DNA from: Eledone cirrhosa
Taxonomy: Eukaryota
Assembly: GCA_964016885.1 (NCBI GenBank)
Contig: OZ024741.1
Location: 330,460,001-330,524,000 of the forward strand
Direction: 5' to 3'
DNA length: 64,000 nucleotides
Of the stretch, positions 628 through 53,789 are shown piece by piece. The notes beneath the pieces are model-generated. The model was not told where the DNA came from, made no database searches, and was given only the letters and a program-made list of their open reading frames with translations. Position 1 is the first letter of the stretch; each line of letters begins with the position of its first letter. Position numbers and translations under genes: made by a program.

Positions 628-3600
628 TCATCATCATCATCATCATCATTTTACGTCCGCTTTTCCCTGCTTGCAAGGGTGGGACGGGTCTTATTCAGCA
701 CAGCATCTCTCCACTCGTCACGGTCCCTTGTCATCTCCACCGTGAGCTTCAATGATCTGAGGTCTGTTCTCACCACCTCCGCCCATGTTTTTCGTGGTCT
801 ACCTCTACCACGTCTTCCTTCAACTGGCATTTCCTGGCACTTCTTCACCCATCGGTCATCCTCCATGCGCATCACATGTCCATACCACCTCAGTCTCCTC
901 TCCCGTACACTACATTCTATCCCTCTCAGACACAGTTTCTCTCTCAACACATTTATGCTGGGTCGTTCACGCACATTTACACTGCACATCCAACGGAGCA
1001 TGCTTGCCTCATTTCTCTCCAGCCGTCGCATATCTTCTGCGGTAGCTGCCCATGTCTCACTACCATGCAGCATCGCGCTCCTCACACAGGCATCATACAA
1101 CCGGCCTTTCGTACGCAGGGAGAAACCCTTCTTCGTCAACAGAGGAAGCAGCTCCCTAAACTTCTTCCAACCCGTCCTTATTCTAGATACTATGGCCTCG
1201 GAACACCCTCCTCCCATGCTAATCTGATCTCCTAGGTACCGGAAGCTATCCACCACTTCTATAGCGCCCTCTCGCATTTGAAAAATGTGTCTATCAGTGC
1301 GACTTCTACTGTCTAATTTCCCTGTACATCTACTGCATACATATTTCTCCCTACCTGTTAGTTTGCCTGCTATCCCGCTACATCTCTTGTGTACCCAGGA
1401 CCTACATTGTGTGCATTTTATAGAATTTATGCCAGTTCCTTTTCTGCATATCGAACATGGCCATTTCCCTGACGGAATCAGGGTTTTGTCCTCTTTTCTA
1501 CTCATCAACACTTTTGTCTTAGCTAGATTTACTCTCAGTCCTCTTGCTTCCAACTGCTGTTTCCATAGCCGGAATTTATTCTCTAGCTCCTCTACTGATT
1601 CTGCCATAAGAGCCAGATCGTCAGCATAGAGAAGTTCCCATCGACAGCCAGTCTTAAACTCCTCTGTTATGGCTTGGAGGACTATAATGAACAAGAGCGG
1701 GCTGAGGACCGAACCCTGATGTACTCCTACTTGTATCTGGAATTCCTCACTAAATTCCATTCCTACCCTGACTTTACTGAGAGTACCTCTGTACAAAGTT
1801 TGCACTGTCCTTACAAGCCATTCCTCAACACCCAGCTTCCTTAGGGACCACCAGATGACAGATCGGGGTACCCTATCAAAGGCCTTCTCTAGGTCAACAA
1901 AGGCTAAGTATAGTGGCTTATTCTTCTCTAAGAACCTCTCTTGCATTTGTCTCACCAAGAAGAGGGCATCTGTTGTACTCTTCCCAGGCACAAAACCAAA
2001 CTGCATCTCATCTAGTTTGACCCTTTCTCTAATTAGTTGTGCTAAAATCCTTTCTGCCACTTTCATAACCTGATCTATCAGTTTTATACCCCTATAATTG
2101 CTCCTCTCCAAAGCATCCCCTTTACCTTTGTAGCAATTTATGAGAATACTGCTGCACCAGTCTTTGGGTATGACACCACCATATATAGCCTGATTGATTA
2201 TGCGTGCAACCAGTTTAGTGCCTACGTCCCCTGATGCCTTCAGCATCTCAGCAACTATTCCCGATGGTCCGGCCGCCTTACCATTTTTCATTTCCCTAAT
2301 CGCCTCTTGGACCCTATATTCGTCAATCTCAATAGCTGGTCCCTCTGTCGGATCTACCAAGGGTAATTTCTCTCTCTCCCATTCGTTCTCCACATTCATC
2401 AGTCTCTCATAATGACATTTCCAGGCCTCCTTTTTCTGGTCATTCGTGACACTAAGTACACCGGCATCATCCCGGACACATTTATCACCAACAACATCCT
2501 GATTTGCATTGACACACTGCCTTGCAATGTGGAACACCGCACGCCTCTGATCTTCCCGTCGCAGAACATTGGCAAACCTCCTACTCTCTGCCTCCCTGCG
2601 TGCTAAGTACACCTGACGTCTAGCTTCTCTCTTAGTGGCTGTATATTCTTCCCTACTCCCACCCTTATTCCAAGCCTTCCATGCTAGTCTTTTGTCTCTA
2701 ATAGCCTTATCTACACTGCTGTTCCACCACCAGGTCACTCTCTGTCTGGTTGGAGCTCTGCTCCAGCCACAGGTTTCATCAGTAGCCTTCAGCAAGTTGT
2801 CACGTAAGAACTTCCAGTTATTATCTATGTCATACGTCTCTAAATCGTCTTCTTTTTCGTCATATACATCTTGAAGGGCTTTCCTAAATTTGAATTTTAG
2901 TGAAAGGTCTTTTAGCTTCCAGACCTTTCTTCTCCACACCTTCCTATATGTCTCATTCCATCTCTTGCTTACTGAGATATCACTAACAACTAACCTATGC
3001 TGTGGGGTACATTCTTCCCCAGGGTATGCCTTGGTATTAGACACTATCTGCCTGTCCCGCTGCCTAACTAGCAGGAAGTCAATCTGGCTTATGTGCTCAC
3101 CAGATTTGTAGGTTATTAGGTGATTGGCAGGTTTCTGGAAGTTTGTGTTGCAAATAGTCAATGTACTTGCATCACAAAATTCAAGAAGTCTCACTCCTTC
3201 TTCATTTCTTGAACCGTAACCGTGCCCACCATGTACCCCAGTGTAACCATCCTGGAGCTGTCCAACATGACCATTGAAGTCTCCTGCTAGCATAACGATG
3301 TCTCCGTCCTCTGTCATTGTGGTTGTTTGCAAAAGTTGCTCATAAAAGCAGTCTTTCTCATCTTTGCCCAGGCCTGCTTGGGGAGCATAGACCGAGATGA
3401 TTGTCAGTAGTCTCCTACCTACAACTAATCTAAGCTTAATTATTCGATTACTAACTCGAACTACCTCTATTGTCTTATTGATCCATTTCTCAGCCAGGAA
3501 AATGCCTACTCCCCCTAACCCATCATCCTTACCTACCCAGAATAGCTTATAGCTAAGACGCTTGCCTACGACTAGTCTCGCAGAGGCACCTCTCCATCTC

Positions 3601-3906
3601 ACCTCTTGCACGCAGCACATCCACCTGCCTTCTCTCCAGCATCTCCGCTATTTCAGCAGATCTACCTCTGAGAGTGCCAACATTAAGTGTTGCAACTCTG
3701 AGATGCGACGTCTTCATATTTTTCTATGGTGTTTTGTTGCTGTGCTGATAAGCTTTTTGGCATTGATACACTGGTTGGATGCCCTTCCTAACACCAGCGC
3801 CACTTTACAGCATGGACTGGGTGCTTTTATTTGTGCCACCAGCACTAGAGAGGATGTCTTACTAGACTCAAGGGCCCTCTCTACCCCTCCATTTTACAGC
3901 ATGGTC

Positions 3907-9410: not shown

Positions 9411-11491
9411 GTGCTGAGAAGAAAGATGCATGGAAGAGTCATTATGATAGATTACTAAATGAGGAGAATGCATGGGAAGAAGAGACCCTACCCCACGTAG
9501 ACCCTATAGAGGGACCAGCAGTACAAGTCAGCGGCAGCGTAGTAAGTAAGGCAATCAGAGATATGAAGATAGGGAAGGCAACCGGTCCATCGGGTATAGC
9601 TGCCGAGATGCTGAAGGCATCTGGGTCTGTAGGTCACACTATAACCACACGTATCGTTAACCAGGTAATACTAGAGGGGGCCATACCAAAAGATTGGTGC
9701 AGTAGCATCATTGTCAACTGCTACAAAGGTAAAGGCGATGCACTAGATAGAGGAAACTATAGAGGTATAAAGTTGATGGACCAGGTCATGAAAGTAACAG
9801 AAAGAGTTATAGCACAGCTGATTAGGGACCGGGTGAATATAGACGAGATGCAATTTGGGTTTGTTCCAGGGAAAGGCACCACTGATGCGCTCTTCCTTGT
9901 GAGGCAATTACAGGAAAAGTACCTAGCTAAAAGTAAGCCACTCTACTTGGCATTTGTCGACCTTGAGAAAGCCTTTGACAGAGTTCCACGTGCAGTAATC
10001 TGGTGGGCTCTTAGAAAACTAGGAGTAGATGAATGGCTTGTGAAAGCGGTACAAGCCATGTATAGGGGAGCAGTCAGCAAAGTTAGGATTGGCAATGAGT
10101 ATAGCGAGGAATTTAGCGTACAGGTTGGGGTCCACCAGGGCTCTGTTCTTAGCCCTCTCCTGTTCATCATAGTCCTGCAGGCAATAACGGAGGAGTTTAA
10201 GACCGGATGCCCATGGGAACTCCTGTATGCTGATGACCTCGCACTCATAGCTGAATCTATGGTAGAACTAGAGAATAAATTCCAAACCTGGAAGCAGGGA
10301 CTAGAGAGAAAGGGCCTCAAAGTCAACATGACAAAGACTAAGGTCCTTATAAGTAGACGAGAAAACAGAACCCAGATCCCCTCAGGGAAATGGCCTTGCT
10401 CAGTATGTAGGAAAGGTGTAGGTAGGAACTCCATTCTCTGCCCCAAATGCAAACAATGGGTACACAAGAGATGTAGCGGGATCTCAGGAAGCTTAATTAA
10501 GAATGTAGGATTCACATGCAGCAGCTGTGCTGAAACAGCAAGCAAACAGCCACAGGAAACAAGTATCACCAATCTCTGGGAGGGCCCTGTAGAAACAGTA
10601 GACAGCTTCTGCTACCTAGGTGACCGAATTAGCAACGGAGGTGGGTGCTCAGAAAGTACAATAACTAGGGTAAGAACGGGATGGAAGAAGTTTAGGGAAC
10701 TACTACCACTGCTAGCTGCAAAAGGCTTCTCCCTCAGAATGAAAGGCAGACTGTATGATGCGTGTATCCGAACAGCGATGTTGCATGGTAGTGAGACCTG
10801 GGCGCTGAAGGTGGAAGACTTACGTAGATTAGAGAGAAACGAAGCCTGCATGCTCCGATGGATGTGTAACAGTAATATACGTGAACGACAAAGCATAAAT
10901 GAATTGAGAGAGAGACTGAGCATAAGAGGAATCAAATGCTGCGTGCAGGAGAGGCGGTTACGCTGGTATGGACATGTGATGCGTATGAAGGATGACAGCT
11001 GCATAAAAAGGTGCAGAGCACTAGAAGTTGATGGAAACCGCGGAGTGGGGAGACCCAAGATGACTTGGGATGAGGTGATAAAAGCCGACCTTACCCAACT
11101 ACACCTCTCAAAGTCAATGACACACGACCGTGACTTCTGGCGTCACGCAGTAATACAGGGTACCCGACCTCCCATGGGTACATGCTGAAGCATATAAACA
11201 ATATGCCCCCCCCCCCCCCCCACCGCAAGGTGGCCGTGGAGGTGCCACGGCAAAAAAGCACCCAGCCCACACTGTAAAGTGGACGTGTAGGCGCCACGAA
11301 AAAGCACCCAGCACTCACTGTAAATGAGGTTGGTGTTAGGAAGGGCATCCAGCTGTAGAAATCAAGCCAGATCAGTTCCTGTATGAGCAAGGCATGGTCA
11401 GCCGACCAGACACTGCCCACAACAGGACAACCCGTCTAACCCATGCTAGCGTGGAAGAACGGACGTAAAACGGTGATGATGATGATGATGA
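9411..11491 (+). mobile_element. 5'-truncated RTE LINE (family B) with open RT frame to 11188 and a 300-bp 3'UTR
   Basis: [16 protein letters not shown] and YADD motifs; (GAT)n tail. The ORF N-terminus in the track is microsatellite read-through. Confidence 0.95.
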
Positions 11492-13745: not shown

Positions 13746-14417
13746 TAAACAATTAAGTTAAAAATGTACATCTACATATGCATACTGAAATACTAGTGTG
13801 TATATGAATACACACACGTATACATATGTAGGTGTACCAAGTCTTTCACTGGTCGCTTTGCAGTGAGCGGCCAGCTATTCTGTATGTAAACACACAGACA
13901 AACCGGTTTTTAGAGTCATACTGGTTTTTCGGGGGAACACCTTCCCCCTATTCTCCAGAAAGCCAGACAAGGAATATTGAACTAGTTTCGTTGTTGTTAC
14001 AACTCATCAGCAATATTTACCTATCTACCGGCCTTTCTGGAGAATTGTAAAAGCACATATCGTTATATGCTTTTTCTATGAAAATTAGTAGTGGGCAGAC
14101 TAATTTGCATAGAGTGTGAGTACGCACCGGTTCAGCGGAGACGATAAAAACAAATAACGAAACGAAATTAAATTTTGTTTCGTTTGTAACTCACTTTTGT
14201 ATGACTGACGCTTAAACAATTAAGTTAAAAATGTACATCTACATATGCATACTGAAATACTAGTGTGTATATGAATACACACACGTATACATATGTAGGT
14301 GTACCAAGTCTTTCACTGGTCGCTTTGCAGTGAGCGGCCAGCTATTCTGTATGTAAACACACAGACAAACCGGTTTTTAGAGTCATAATTAGAAATTTAA
14401 TTTCGTTTCGTTATTTG

Positions 14418-14424
<7 letters not shown>
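13746..14424 (-). mobile_element. 467-bp unit (1.4 tandem copies) with hammerhead: retrozyme-like family R2, with short inverted 5' piece
   Basis: The unit restarts at 14213 and runs to 14387. Positions 14393-14424 are an inverted copy of about 14143-14174. Confidence 0.85.
13973..14017 (-). ncRNA. Type I hammerhead ribozyme, R2
   Basis: AAUAUUG-CUGAUGA-GUUGU(AACA)ACAAC-GAAA-CUAG-UU-CAAUAUU. The outer stem TTCTCCAGAAAG/CTTTCTGGAGAA extends helix I. Confidence 0.9.
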
Positions 14425-16055: not shown

Positions 16056-19000
16056 AGTCAGAGGCCCATACTATCGCTTAACTGGTTGCTTTTCGATATG
16101 ATGGATGGACTACGGAATTCTGGAGAGTTGAAGAGAGAAAAATGTGGACGCTCAGCGACAATGCCAAAGATAAAGCCAAATTCACCTCGTGGACGAGAAT
16201 GCAAGCACTCCTCCTTGTTTCGGCCCAGGATGGCTAACATAACCCCCCCCCCCCCCCGCGCCCCACCGCTCCCACCCTCCAAACGCAATCCAAAACTTCA
16301 GAGTTGGCACCATGAATGTAGGCACCTTAAAGGGTCGCTCTAACGAGGTTGTAGAAATGCTTGAACGTAAGGAGGTCGATGTTTGTTGTATTCAAGAGAC
16401 CAGGTCGAGGGGAGGGTCGGCTAGATTCATCGTGGGTAAAGAACGATGCTATAAGCTTTTCTGGGTGGGAAATGACAATGGGTTGGGTGGGGTAGGAATC
16501 ATGGTAGCAGAAAAGTGGGCAGATAAGATAATAGACGTAAATAGAGTGAACGACAGAATAATTAAAATAAGACTTGTCCTCAATAAAACTACGGTGACAG
16601 TAATATCTGCGTACGCACCCCAATCCGGACTGCCCCGCGCTATAAAAGACAGATTCTACGAGACACTGATGCTCGCTACCTCCCAAATAACCGACAGTGA
16701 CTATATAGTTATTGCAGGCGACCTAAATGGTCACGTTGGACAACATTGTGACGGCTATGACGGAATCCATGGAGGCTATGGGTTCGGTACTAGAAATGAG
16801 GAAGGCTCCAGAATCCTGGAATTCTGCGACGCAAATAACTTAACTATCTGTAACACTAACTTCAAAAAACGAGACAATCACTTGATCACCTATAGATCGG
16901 GGGAACACACAAGCCAGGTAGATTATATCCTTACCAGAAGACGGGACAGAGTGTCTGTTGTTAACACTAAATCCCACCCCCATGAAGAATTCACCTCCCA
17001 ACATAGACTGATAATTAGCGACCTCATAGTCAGGACGAGACGTACTAGACAGCGGAAGAGGACTATCCTCAGGAGAAAAATATGGAAGCTAAAGGACCCC
17101 ATAGCCAGAAATAAATTTCAAAGCATATTACTTGACGCTTTCGACAGTAAGGAAGAGCAATTAGAGTCGTATAATATAGAGGAACAGTGGGAATTCCTGA
17201 GAGCAAACCTGCTGACGGCGGCAGACGAAGTCTGTGGCTGGAGCAGGCCTGTAGGTAGGAGGAGAGTAACATGGTGGTGGAACAGTAAGGTGGAGGAGTC
17301 AATTAAGGCCAAAAAGCAGGCTTGGAAAGTATGGCGGGATGGGGGAAGTAGAGAAGACTATCAAGTGGCCAGGAGGGAAGCTAGGAGACAAGTGTACTTC
17401 GCAAGAAGGGAAGCAGAGGAAAGAAAGTTCAAGCATGTTCTACAACGTGAGGACCAAAAACGTGAGGTGTTCAGGATTGCCAGGCAATGTGTCAAGGAAA
17501 ACCGTGATATTGTCGGGGAGAAGTGTGTACTTAACGATGATGGCATACTTGCCTTCACCGACGCTGATAAGAAGGTAGCTTGGAAGTGTCACTACGAAAG
17601 GCTTCTAAATGAGGAGAACGAGAACAAATGGGAGAAAGACAGTCTCCCCCAGATCGATCCAATAGAGGGACCAGCAGTGTTAGTTGAAGGTAGTATAATA
17701 AGTAAGGCAATCAAAGATATGAAGACGGGTAAGGCGGCTGGGCCTTCGGAAATAGTTGCTGAGATGCTGAAGGCATCTGGTTCGGTGGGACACACCATGG
17801 TCACCCGGATAGTTAACCAAGTCGTACAGAATGGGGTTGTTCCGAAGGAATGGCGTAGCAGCATCATCGTTAACTGCTATAAGGGAAAAGGAGATGCCCT
17901 AGATAGGAGTAACTATAGAGGCATTAAATTAATCGACCAGGTCATGAAGGTCACGGAAAAAGTAATAGCGCAACTAATCAGAGAGAGAATTGATCTAGAT
18001 GAAATGCAGTTCGGGTTTGTGTCAGGCAAAAGTACCACAGACGCTCTTTTCATTGTACGACAACTACAAGAGAAGTACCTAGCTAAAAGTAAACCCCTAT
18101 ACTTAGCTTTCGTCGACTTGGAGAAAGCCTTCGACAGAGTCCCCCGTTCCATTATCTGGTGGTCTCTTAGAAAACTAGGTGTTGACGAATGGCTTGTGAG
18201 AGCTATACAAGCCATGTATAAAGAAACAGTCAGTAAGGTTAGAATTAACAACGAATATAGTGAAGAGTTTAGCGTAAAAGTTGGTGTCCATCAGGGCTCT
18301 GTTCTTAGCCCCCTACTATTTATTATTGCCCTTCAGGCTATAACAGAGGAGTTCAAGACCGGCTGCCCATGGGAACTCCTATACGCAGATGATCTAACGC
18401 TCATAGCTGAATCAATGGCCGAACTAGAGAAGAAATTCCAAACGTGGAAGCACGGCCTAGAATCAAAAGGCCTTAAAATTAACCTGGCTAAGACTAAAGT
18501 TCTAGTTTGTAGGAAAGAAAATAAGGCGGCGGTCCCATCGGGGAAATGGCCATGCTCAGTGTGTAGGAAAGGCGTAGGTAGAAACTCCATTTTATGTCCC
18601 AAATGCAAAGTATGGGTGCATAAAAGATGTAGTGGGATCACAGGTAAGCTAACTAAGAACATAGATTTTACATGTGGCCGGTGCTCTGGTGCAATAAGTA
18701 GCAGCAAGTGCCCACAAAATACTAGCTCCTTCAACTGCGCAAAGGGTTCTATAGAAATAGTGGCCAGCTTCCGTTATCTGGGTGACAAAATCAGCAGTGG
18801 GGGAGGGTGCTCTGAAAGTACAGTAGCTAGAGTCAGAACTGGATGGAAAAAGTTCAGAGAGCTTATACCACTATTAGCGCTAGAGGGTTCTCCCTAAAAT
18901 GAAAGGCAGGTTATACGATGCCTGCATATGAACAGCAATGCTGCATGGCAGTGAGACCTGGGCATTGTGGTGCAGAGGATATACGCAGACTAGAGAGGAA

Positions 19001-43462: not shown

Positions 43463-45817
43463 AAGTAGATGAGGCAGCTAAGGCCAAGAGACAGGCATGG
43501 AAAGAATGGAAGAACGGGGGAAGCAGGGTACATTACATAGAGACCAAGAGGGAAGCTAAGCGTCAAGTATACTTACCTAGGAGGGAAGCAGAGGATAGAA
43601 AATTCAAGCATGTTTTGCAACGTGAGGACCAGAAACAGGAGGTGTTCAAGATTGCGAGGCAGTGTGTAAGAGAGAATTGTCATGTCATTAGAGAGAAGTG
43701 TATCCGGAATGATAAAGGTGAGCTTGCCCTCACAAGTGCTGAGAAGAAAGATGCATGGAAGAGCCATTATGATAGATTACTAAATGAGGAGAATGCATAG
43801 GAAGAAGAGACCCTACCCCAAGTAGACCCTATAGAGGGGTCAGCAGTACAAGTCAGCAGCAGCATAGTAAGTAAGGCAATCAAAGGTATGAAGATGGGGA
43901 AGGCAACCGGTCCATCGGGTATAGCTGCCGAGATGCTGAAGGCATCTGGGTCTGTAGGTCACACTATAACCACACGTATTGTTAACCAGGTAATACTAGA
44001 AGGTGTCATACCAAAAGATTGGTGCAGTAGCATCATTGTCAACTGCTACAAAGGTAAAGGTGATGCACTAGATAGAGGAAACTATAGAAGTATAAAGCTG
44101 ATGGACCAGGTCATGAAAGTAACAGAAAGAGTTATAGCACAGTTGATTAGGGATCGGGTGAAACTAGATGAGATGCAATTTGGGTTTGTACCAGGAAGAG
44201 GCACCACTGATGCCCTCTTCCTTGTGAGGCAGTTACAGGAAAAGTACCTAGCTAAAAGTAAGCCAATCTACCAGGCATTCGTCGATCTCGAGAAAGCCTT
44301 TGAAAGAGTTCCACGTGCTATAATCTGGTGGGCTCTTAGAAAACTAGGAGTAGATGAATGGCTTGTGAAAGCGGTACAAGCCATGTATAGGGGAGCAGTC
44401 AGCAAAGTTAGGATTAGCAATGAGTATAGCGAGGAATTTAGCGTACAGGTTGGTGTCCACCAGGGCTCTATTCTTAGCCCTCTCCTGTTCATCATAGTCG
44501 TGCAGGCAATAACGGAGGAGTTTAAGACTGGATGCCCATGGGAACTCCTGTATGCAGATGACCTCGCACTTATAGCTGAATCTATGGTAGAACTAGAGAA
44601 GAAATTCCAAACTTGGAAGCAGGGACTAGAAAGAAAGGGTTTCAAAGTCAACATGACAAAGACTAAGGTCCTTGTAAGTAGACGAGAAAACAGAACCCAG
44701 ATCTCCCCAGGGAAATAGCCTTGCTCAGTATGTAGGAAAGGTGTAGGTAGGAACTCCATTCTCTGCCCCAAAGGCAAACAATGGGTACACAAGAGATGTA
44801 GCGGGATCTCAGGAAGCTTAATTAAGAATGTAGGCTTCACATGTAGCAGCTGTGCTGGGACAGCAAGCAGCAAACAGCCACAGGAAACAAGTACCACCAA
44901 TCTCTGGGAGGGCTCTGTAGAAACAGTAGACAGCTTCTGCTACCTAGGTGACCGAATTAGCAGCGGAGGTGGGTGTTCAGAAAGTACAATAACTAGGGTA
45001 AGAACGGGATGGAAGAAGTTCAGGGAACTACTGCTACTGCTAGCTGCAAAAGGATTCTCCCTCAAAATGAAAGGCAGACTGCATGATGCATGTATCCGAA
45101 CAGTAATGTTACATGGTAGTGAGACCTGGGCGCTGAAGGTGGAAGACTTACGCAGATTAGAAAGAAACGAAGCCTGCATGCTGCGATGGATGTGTAATAG
45201 TAATATACGCGAACGGCAAAGCATAAATGAATTGAGAGAGAGACTGAGCATAAGAGGAATCAAATTCTGTGTGCATCAGTGGCGGTTGCGTTGGTATGGA
45301 CATGTGATGCGTATGAAGGATGACAGCTGCATAAAAAGGTTCAGAGCACTAGAAGTCAATGGAAACCGCGGAGTGGGGAGACCCAAGAAGACCTGGGATG
45401 AGGTGATAAAAGCCGACCTTACCCAATTTCACCTCTCAAAGGCAATGACACATGACCGTGACCTCTGGCTTCATGCAGTAATACAGAGTACCTGACCTCC
45501 CATGGGTACAAGCTGAAGCATATAGACAATATGCCCCCACACCCTCCCACTGCAAAGTGGTAGTGGAGGTGCAACGGCAAAAAAGCACCCAGCCCACACT
45601 GTAAAGTGGACGTGTAGGCACCACGGAAAAAAAGCACCCAGCACTCACTGTAAATGAAGTTGGTGTTAGGAAGGGCATCCAGCTGTAGAAATCAAGTCAA
45701 AATCAGTTCCTGTATGAGCAAGGCATGGTCAGCCGACCAGGCACTGCCCACAACAGGACAACCCGTCTAACCCATGCTAGCATGGAAGAACGGACGTAAA
45801 ACGGTGATGATGATGAT
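43463..45817 (+). mobile_element. 5'-truncated RTE family-B copy with nonsense mutations
   Basis: Colinear with 9411-11491; TGG>TAG stops at about 43798 and 44716; (GAT)n tail. Confidence 0.95.
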
Positions 45818-51887: not shown

Positions 51888-51933
51888 TGCTAACATTGTT
51901 TCATCCGCACTATAAGTGGGACTCATCAGAGCA
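51888..51933 (-). ncRNA. Minimal hammerhead ribozyme
   Basis: UGCU-CUGAUGA-GUCCCAC(UUAUA)GUGCGGAU-GAAA-CAAUG-UU-AGCA. Confidence 0.8.
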
Positions 51934-52687: not shown

Positions 52688-53789
52688 ATGAGTTTCATCG
52701 GGTATTCTTGTTTTTTAAGGAATTTTTTCAGGTCACATAATCTTTTTTCTTGTAGTACGGGGTGTGTTGCTATAGTGCAGATGCGCCTTGCCATGTTGAA
52801 GGGAATGTTCCTTTTCGTATGTGAGGGGTGTGCTGACTATGGAATGTAACGAAAAGGAACTGCCCTTTCTAGATATCCTCATCATTAAAGAAGGGGAAAA
52901 TATCATAACGGACCTATTTTGCAAACCCACTGACACACACCAATACTTAAATTTCCGGTCAGCACACCCCTCACATACGAAAAGGAACATTCCCTTCAAC
53001 ATGGCAAGGCGCATCTGCACTATAGCAACACACCCCGTACTACAAGAAAAAAGATTATGTGACCTGAAAAAATTCCTTAAAAAACAAGAATACCCGATGA
53101 AACTCATCAACGCAGCCATCTCCAAGGCTAAGAACATCCCAATAACAACACTGAGAAAACCAAACCCACAACATAAAAAAGAAAACCCTGCTATCTCTTT
53201 TGTCATCCCTCACAACCCAGGGAACATCAACATTGTGAAAACTGCTAAGCAGTATCTCCCGATTCTACAGCAATCTACCAAAATGAATGCACTCTTAAAA
53301 AACACACAGATAATTTATAGCAGACGCCAAGCACCCAACCTTAAAAAACTAATTACCAAGACAAAATTTACGACCAACATGGAATCAATGCAAGTGACGA
53401 AATGCGGGGACCCTAGATGTGGAACCTGTGAACTCATCGAAGAGGGCAAACAGTTGTCCTTCAAAAACCATGATAATTTCAAGGTCAATGCTAACATGAA
53501 CTGCAAAACGAAAAACCTAATATATTGCGCAACATGTCCACAGTGTAAAGAGTATTACATTGGGGAAACCGGAACGGGATTACATGATAGAGTCCGGGTA
53601 CATAAACAACAGATTAAAGACCCCACAGTCAGAAATACCACATGTAGAGCACACTTTGCATCATGCGGGAAGGGAAAATTCACAATCTTCCCTTTCTTCA
53701 AGATATGGTCGGATAACGAACATTTCCGCAGATATAAAGAAGAATTCTTCATTGAAAAATTTAAACCACTACTGAACACGAAAAAATGA
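52688..53789 (+). mobile_element. 5'-truncated PLE (Neptune-like RT thumb plus GIY-YIG) with an inverted 5' duplication
   Basis: LPFLDI..KPTDTHQYL..SAHP, KCGDPRCGTC, IYCATCPQC..YIGET..R..H..LN. 52688-52837 is the reverse complement of 52958-53108. Confidence 0.9.

What the first reader, a model, noticed from the sequence alone, without database searches (positions are those of the whole stretch)
13746..14424. Second retrozyme family shows compensatory covariation with the first
Seen: R2 (467 bp) is largely unalignable to R1 (466 bp) but keeps the same order of modules. Helix I is AACGGUG/CAUCGUU versus AAUAUUG/CAAUAUU. Helix II is AGCU/AGCU versus GUUGU/ACAAC. Loop II (AACA), the CUAG in stem III and the helix-I bulge (AGAU.GGUAAA...UUCCU) are conserved, while the distal stems differ but remain paired. 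Inference: selection on RNA structure, including the loop II-helix I tertiary contact, and on unit length. This suggests an old, diversified retrozyme lineage that I do not recognise as described for this kind of genome.
Basis: partly seen in the sequence, partly recalled or inferred. Interest (0 to 1): 0.85.

Follow-up and report, generated by a model that had tools for sequence, protein, structure and literature searches.

The report
Hammerhead retrozymes carrying a U6-type promoter
This is one copy of a young, abundant non-coding jumping element with a hammerhead-ribozyme motif, a sister of the neighbouring family, and it carries the same upstream DNA box as the host's own U6-type small-RNA genes, which likely drives its transcription and which it could likely copy only by passing through a circular or tandem RNA.

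Summary
Compensatory changes exceed a substitution-shuffle null in the hammerhead (5-6 vs about 1) and, for R1b vs R2, in the body (8-11 vs 2-3). Equal unit length is not conserved (335-511 bp in relatives). R2 is a young dispersed family whose copies sit in (TA)n, usually as two inverted arms ending at two fixed sites about 70 nt apart: the Penelope-like-element (PLE) 'tail' footprint. This window's copy has one ribozyme only. New here: seven ribozyme families (about 22,500 pattern hits vs 3 control) carry a 12-bp box plus TATA upstream of the ribozyme. The box is in the host's U6, U6atac and RNase MRP promoters and in 0 of 15 U1/U2/U5 promoters. Spacing is 4-6 bp shorter than U6 in most families and the units contain T-runs, so the polymerase is unresolved. 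No homology to the ends of seven sampled PLE families. Verdict: a variant of known animal non-LTR retrozymes; cleavage and expression untested.

The parts
13746..14387 (-). Main arm of the R2 insertion: unit positions 60-467 then 1-234 (numbered from the cleavage site); runs across the cleavage junction and ends in (TA)n at the short fixed end
   Evidence: L004
14393..14424 (+). Inverted second arm, unit positions 272-303, ending in (TA)n at the long fixed end (PLE-type tail end); 5-bp spacer at 14388-14392
13957..14028 (-). Type I hammerhead motif: helix I 14017-14011 with 13979-13973, core 14010-14004, helix II 14003-13990 with loop AACA, palindromic short helix III, predicted cut between 13980 and 13979 (GUU triplet)
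   Evidence: cleavage not tested
14100..14111 (-). 12-bp octamer-containing box matching the upstream box of host U6, U6atac and RNase MRP genes
14063..14069 (-). TATA-like box 41 bp downstream of the box; predicted start near 14039, at the 5' arm of the extended helix I
   Evidence: start site inferred from the host -30 rule
14144..14212 (-). Tail segment between the two fixed ends (unit 235-303), with a hairpin; inferred reverse-transcription start region
   Evidence: PMC11167929
4275..6093 (-). Sister family R1: 3.9 units of 466 bp, four hammerheads, same box and TATA, ends at its long fixed end (unit 310) in (TA)n

Best explanation
R2 is a young non-coding repeat family homologous to R1, with a type I hammerhead motif, two fixed ends in (TA)n and the host's U6-type upstream box, and it is likely a retrozyme transcribed from that box and likely copied in trans by a Penelope-like retrotransposon. 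Model (inferred): in a tandem, the box and TATA of one unit start transcription just before the ribozyme; read-through gives a multimer; two ribozyme cuts release a unit-length RNA that now holds the promoter sequence near its 3' end; the RNA is likely circularised; a PLE protein nicks both strands of a (TA)n target and starts reverse transcription internally, once at each of two fixed sites, running across the junction to give inverted arms and new tandems. Copies with one ribozyme, like this one, would be dead ends.
For: Shown: homology. Compensation beyond a null that moves the observed substitutions at random: hammerhead region 5-6 double changes vs 0.9-1.5 (p<=0.001, 4 of 4 R1/R1b-vs-R2 directions); body 8 and 11 vs 2.0 and 3.0 for R1b/R2 (p<0.0005); a long-range helix outside the ribozyme has two-sided changes at 3 of 8 pairs. 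61 of 67 R2 3' ends fall at 229-234 or 299-304, 54 of 67 flanked by TA; 31 of 37 R1 ends at 245-252 or 292-310, at homologous positions; 23 of 24 two-armed R2 insertions with both ends in the clusters have one of each. This matches the PLE tail and inverted arm (PMC8557442 passages; PMC11167929 main text). RT+GIY-YIG elements are abundant (10,596 candidates, 150 scored), with ORFs of 938 and 1096 aa, a Neptune/Nematis-type cysteine linker in 5 of 7 checked, and their own ends in TA repeats. Box plus spacing plus hammerhead core: 22,499 hits vs 3 control. Box at -76 to -79 with TATA at -30 in 3 U6 promoter types, the best U6atac and the one MRP gene; absent from 15 of 15 distinct U1/U2/U5 promoters (best score 4.3 vs 15.1-19.0 in 7 of 7 retrozyme families). 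No 5' ends at the cleavage site (0 of 67 R2, 0 of 34 R1), as expected of a circular or uncut template.
Against: Cleavage, circles and transcription were not observed. Box-to-TATA spacing is 41-43 bp in R1-R5 against 46-48 in the host genes (only R6 has 47), and the units hold T4-T5 runs (4 each) that should stop Pol III before a full unit. R3 (strongly) and R1 (weakly) also carry the U1/U2-type TCAGT box; R2 does not. The box also lies in a predicted hairpin in R1, R1b, R2 and R4, so an RNA role is not excluded. For R1a vs R2 the body shows no excess of double changes (4 vs 2.1, p 0.14; 2 vs 1.6, p 0.50), only fewer breaks (7 vs 17; 9 vs 13.7, p 0.056); the comparisons share ancestry and hairpins can be homogenised without selection. 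No partner PLE identified: 0 of 35 tail comparisons significant (best p 0.063). In vitro, a PLE used uncut RNA and did not need its ribozyme (PMC11167929). Five of 12 U6 loci and 5 of 6 U6atac loci lacked the box; I read these as disrupted copies or pseudogenes, untested.
Confidence: 0.7

Rival explanations
1. R1 and R2 are detached, tandemly amplified terminal repeats (pLTRs) of autonomous PLEs that I did not sample, as proposed for Xenopus retrozymes; the box is that PLE's promoter.
For: 24 of 57 Xenopus families resemble annotated elements, 21 of the 22 being PLEs (bioRxiv 10.64898/2026.07.22.740005, parts 1-3 of 5 read). Only about 50 GIY-YIG loci of 10,596 candidates were examined.
Against: No homology to seven sampled families; the box was seen downstream of 2 of 49 GIY-YIG loci, both holding R1-type copies; sampled pLTRs show CCAAT/TATA and smaller hammerheads. 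I did not screen the flanks of all R1/R2 loci for ORFs.
Confidence: 0.15
2. Same PLE-driven retrozyme, but the conserved box is an RNA hairpin or a generic POU-factor site for ordinary Pol II transcription, and the likeness to U6 is convergent.
For: The box pairs with a downstream arm in R1/R2; spacing differs from U6 by half a helical turn; internal T-runs. The octamer is a common POU site (recalled).
Against: The 5' arm is invariant while other stems change: 0 two-sided changes in 11 pairs vs 14 of the other 29. The match covers 12 bp and comes with a TATA at similar distance; the motif occurred 6 times in 770 kb of other fetched sequence, both strands.
Confidence: 0.25
3. The repeats spread as DNA (satellite-like recombination) and the ribozyme is a relic.
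For: Long arrays exist; 8 of 9 Xenopus dimers did not cleave in vitro (same preprint).
Against: Dispersed copies with fixed 3' ends, scattered 5' ends and inversions are a reverse-transcription pattern; compensation in the ribozyme.
Confidence: 0.04

Closest known systems
Animal non-LTR retrozymes (Cervera & de la Pena 2020, PMC7229834, passages; Li, Clavereau & Pollet 2026, 10.64898/2026.07.22.740005, parts 1-3 of 5)
   Same: Non-coding low-GC tandem units with one canonical type I hammerhead each, highly self-paired, several families per genome, PLEs co-occurring.
   Different: Unit slightly above the 150-450 bp range of the 2020 paper; no pLTR homology found here; in the passages I saw neither paper describes a promoter or the two-ended tail footprint; 'octopus' and 'cephalopod' occur 0 times in the 2020 main text.
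Penelope-like elements, tail and internal priming (Frangieh 2024, PMC11167929, parts 1-2 of 4; Craig 2021, PMC8557442, passages)
   Same: Two start sites, tail at one end, inverted truncated arm, microsatellite targets.
   Different: No ORF; tail 55-75 nt rather than 30-40; canonical rather than minimal hammerhead.
Newt satellite 2 and schistosome hammerhead SINE-like repeats (seen only as cited in PMC2220036 and PMC6765202; Coats 1994 itself not held)
   Same: Promoter inside the repeat, ahead of the ribozyme, so that one unit transcribes the next; the newt promoter is snRNA-type.
   Different: Newt is Pol II, schistosome Pol III; here the box matches the host's Pol III type-3 genes (U6, U6atac, MRP), with shortened spacing, across seven families.

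Membership tests
Animal non-LTR retrozyme | Canonical type I hammerhead in each unit | tested here: met
Animal non-LTR retrozyme | Short low-GC non-coding units in tandem | tested here: met
   467 bp, GC 0.38, longest ATG ORF 20 aa; arrays elsewhere; this locus has only 1.4 units
Animal non-LTR retrozyme | Self-cleavage and circular RNA in tissue | not testable with these tools
   needs bench work or RNA data
Animal non-LTR retrozyme | Homology to a PLE terminal repeat (Xenopus model) | tested here: inconclusive
   none in 7 sampled families; sampling small
PLE-mobilised element | Two fixed 3' ends (tail), one at each end of the insertion | tested here: met
   61 of 67 ends; 23 of 24 insertions
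PLE-mobilised element | Inverted 5'-truncated arm and microsatellite target | tested here: met
Autonomous PLE | ORF with RT and GIY-YIG | tested here: not met
Type I hammerhead ribozyme | Core bases and helices I-III | tested here: met
   below Rfam gathering score
Type I hammerhead ribozyme | Loop II-helix I tertiary contact | tested here: inconclusive
   loop and UA bulge conserved in R1, R1b, R2, R5, not R3/R4
Host Pol III type-3 (U6-type) promoter | Upstream 12-bp box and TATA | tested here: met
Host Pol III type-3 (U6-type) promoter | Box-to-TATA spacing 46-48 bp | tested here: not met
   41 in R2, 42-43 in R1 and R3-R5, 47 in R6
Host Pol III type-3 (U6-type) promoter | Transcribed region free of T4+ runs | tested here: not met
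   four runs per unit
Host Pol III type-3 (U6-type) promoter | Start 30 nt below TATA, polymerase identity | not testable with these tools
   needs start-site mapping and inhibitor tests

The most novel reading that the evidence does not exclude
These retrozymes descend from a captured host U6-type external promoter rather than from PLE terminal repeats, and the ribozyme-plus-circle exists to let a retroelement copy a promoter that lies outside its own transcript, which ordinary SINEs cannot do; seven families with spacings of 41-47 bp form a natural series for how such promoters choose Pol II or Pol III.
Probability: 0.4. Interest if true: 0.72.

Novelty: new variant of a known kind. Interest (0 to 1): 0.5.

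Why it matters
What transcribes animal retrozymes, what mobilises them and why they keep a ribozyme are open questions. The insertion ends give direct genomic evidence for PLE mobilisation, and the match to the host's own U6/MRP promoter box gives a concrete, mutable cis-element and a second origin beside the pLTR model. It also defines this lineage's two snRNA promoter classes. The covariation itself is ordinary for homologous hammerhead elements.

Tried and rejected
Expression: no RNA holder listed. Unit-length selection: rejected. Partner PLE by tail similarity: 0 of 35 significant. Intermediate family with the same loop and different helix II: 106 hits, the 100 listed nearly all R1/R2 variants. 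Pile-up of 5' ends at the cut site or predicted start: not seen; 9 of 67 R2 ends at 7-27 (about 3 expected, window chosen afterwards) is unexplained. A unifying U1/U2-type box in all families: holds for R3, weak for R1, fails for R2, R4-R6. The looser pattern (832 hits) includes a LINE coding stretch as false positives; 96 of the first 100 listed hits were R1-R5 by eye. Rfam microRNA hits are AT-repeat artefacts. No solved-structure match for the PLE protein. Literature searches for cephalopod retrozymes or U6-type retrozyme promoters listed none; subscription papers, Repbase/Dfam and preprint supplements were not available and may bear on novelty. R-scape and CMfinder were not available.

Full report
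Observation. The minus strand of 13746-14424 holds one type I hammerhead motif, matched by Rfam HH9 at 38.6 bits, E 5.3e-7, below the gathering score. The unit is 467 bp. R2 is, however, homologous to R1 throughout: 306 of 499 columns identical, score 332 vs 142+-13 for shuffles, with all five segments above shuffles and the segment upstream of the ribozyme best conserved (39 of 50). Both units fold far better than shuffles as circles (z -7.8 and -11.0).

Copy structure. The genome is 3.0 Gb; named homologues of one of its PLE proteins are from bivalves, so a mollusc is likely; 'cephalopod' is my inference from recall, not tested. R2 gave 1,346 candidates, the best full-length matches among 40 scored being 99-100% identical; R1 gave 737. 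Mapping 36 R2 and 23 R1 loci, mostly the youngest: 61 of 67 R2 3' ends lie at unit 229-234 or 299-304 and 31 of 37 R1 ends at 245-252 or 292-310, positions that align between families; most abut (TA)n. Of 27 two-armed R2 insertions, 24 have both outer ends in the clusters and 23 of these have one short and one long end. 5' ends are scattered, none at the cleavage site. This is the tail and inversion footprint of PLEs, which Frangieh et al. traced to two internal reverse-transcription starts (PMC11167929). The window's copy is such an insertion, with a 642-bp arm and a 32-bp inverted arm, and cannot yield a full monomer.

Covariation. Taking pairs predicted from one family alone and moving the observed substitutions at random, the hammerhead region shows 5-6 double compensations against about 1 in all four R1/R1b-vs-R2 directions. 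The body shows 8 and 11 against 2-3 for R1b/R2, but no excess for R1a/R2 (p 0.14, 0.50), only fewer broken pairs. R2 subfamilies show 2 against 0.2-0.3 (p 0.016-0.033). On a 10-sequence alignment, 14 of 40 named pairs change on both sides against 0-3 for slid controls; the structure came from that alignment and the rows fall in three clades, so this is support, not a formal test. Unit length is not conserved.

Promoter. A pattern of octamer, 75-100 nt and hammerhead core has 22,499 hits against 3 for the control. They fall into families R1, R1b, R2, R3, R4, R5, with R6; R3 and R4 were first found by a ribozyme scan that ignored the box, R5 and R6 only through it. The same 12-bp box stands at -76 to -79, with TATA at -30, in three U6 promoter types (7 of 12 loci fetched), the best U6atac locus (1 of 6) and the one RNase MRP gene. 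It is absent from 15 distinct U1, U2 and U5 promoters chosen from 40 loci, 13 of which carry a different box at -56 to -59. A matrix from the five host boxes scores the seven families 15.1-19.0 and the Pol II promoters at most 4.3. The -30 rule puts the start at the 5' arm of extended helix I in R1 and R2. Against a plain Pol III reading: spacing is 41-43 in R1-R5 (47 in R6), each unit has four T4-T5 runs, and R3 also has the U1/U2 box. The box also folds into a hairpin, though with no two-sided change among R1, R1b and R2; R4 shows one by eye.

Partner. RT+GIY-YIG elements are abundant, with ORFs up to 938 and 1096 aa and TA-flanked ends. None of seven sampled families shares detectable sequence with R1/R2; the partner is unidentified and a pLTR origin from an unsampled family remains possible.

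Mechanism. Shown: homology, structure-preserving change, PLE-type ends, the shared box. Inferred: transcription from the box, read-through, cleavage, circularisation (by analogy with PMC7229834) and PLE-catalysed two-site priming. A tandem or circular template lets the element regenerate a promoter that lies upstream of its start, as argued for schistosome repeats (PMC6765202 passage).

Distribution. Contigs of runs under three organism labels and three studies hold R2-like pieces of 179-220 nt with 7 differences, and R1-like pieces; run kinds are not on record.

Novelty. The class is known, including in a mussel; 235 hammerhead hits are listed for giant squid (PMC6962438 passage); an snRNA-type promoter is reported for newt satellite 2 (seen only as cited). 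My searches listed no paper on a U6-type box in retrozymes. Earlier notes of this scan describe two-armed ends and a promoter-like motif in other genomes; these are unchecked and not independent. Verdict: new variant of a known kind, interest 0.5.

Noticed in passing
L116, L123, L124 (downstream of the ORF); L125 similar: A PLE family whose terminal hammerhead-like motif has U in place of C3 and A in place of G8 in the three copies read, a possible natural covariation of the 3-8 core pair.
   Followed up: no
window 52800-53786 (+): 5'-truncated PLE fragment with GIY-YIG domain and cysteine linker, with an inverted piece upstream.
   Followed up: partly
window 35563 (+) and 58857 (+): Two further hammerhead motifs with long helix II, also seen in L121, L132, L123; the second resembles the end of the PLE in L126.
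   Followed up: no
window 51899-51929 (-): Another hammerhead-core match at the edge of a TA array, not called by my helix filter.
   Followed up: no
window 651-3647, 9452-11185, 16243-18897, 43801-45495: Several copies of a LINE with endonuclease, RT and a C-terminal PHD-finger match.
   Followed up: no
L168-L195, L253-L259 versus L156-L158, L246, L252: Host snRNA promoters fall into two classes, both with TATA at -30: U1/U2/U5 with a TCAGT box near -57, and U6/U6atac/MRP with the 12-bp box near -77.
   Followed up: yes
G000:C3:12272007-12323206: An array of about 85 listed R1-type units over 51 kb with a variant helix II.
   Followed up: no
L192:181: An R2-type ribozyme and promoter within 1.4 kb upstream of a U1 gene array.
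   Followed up: no
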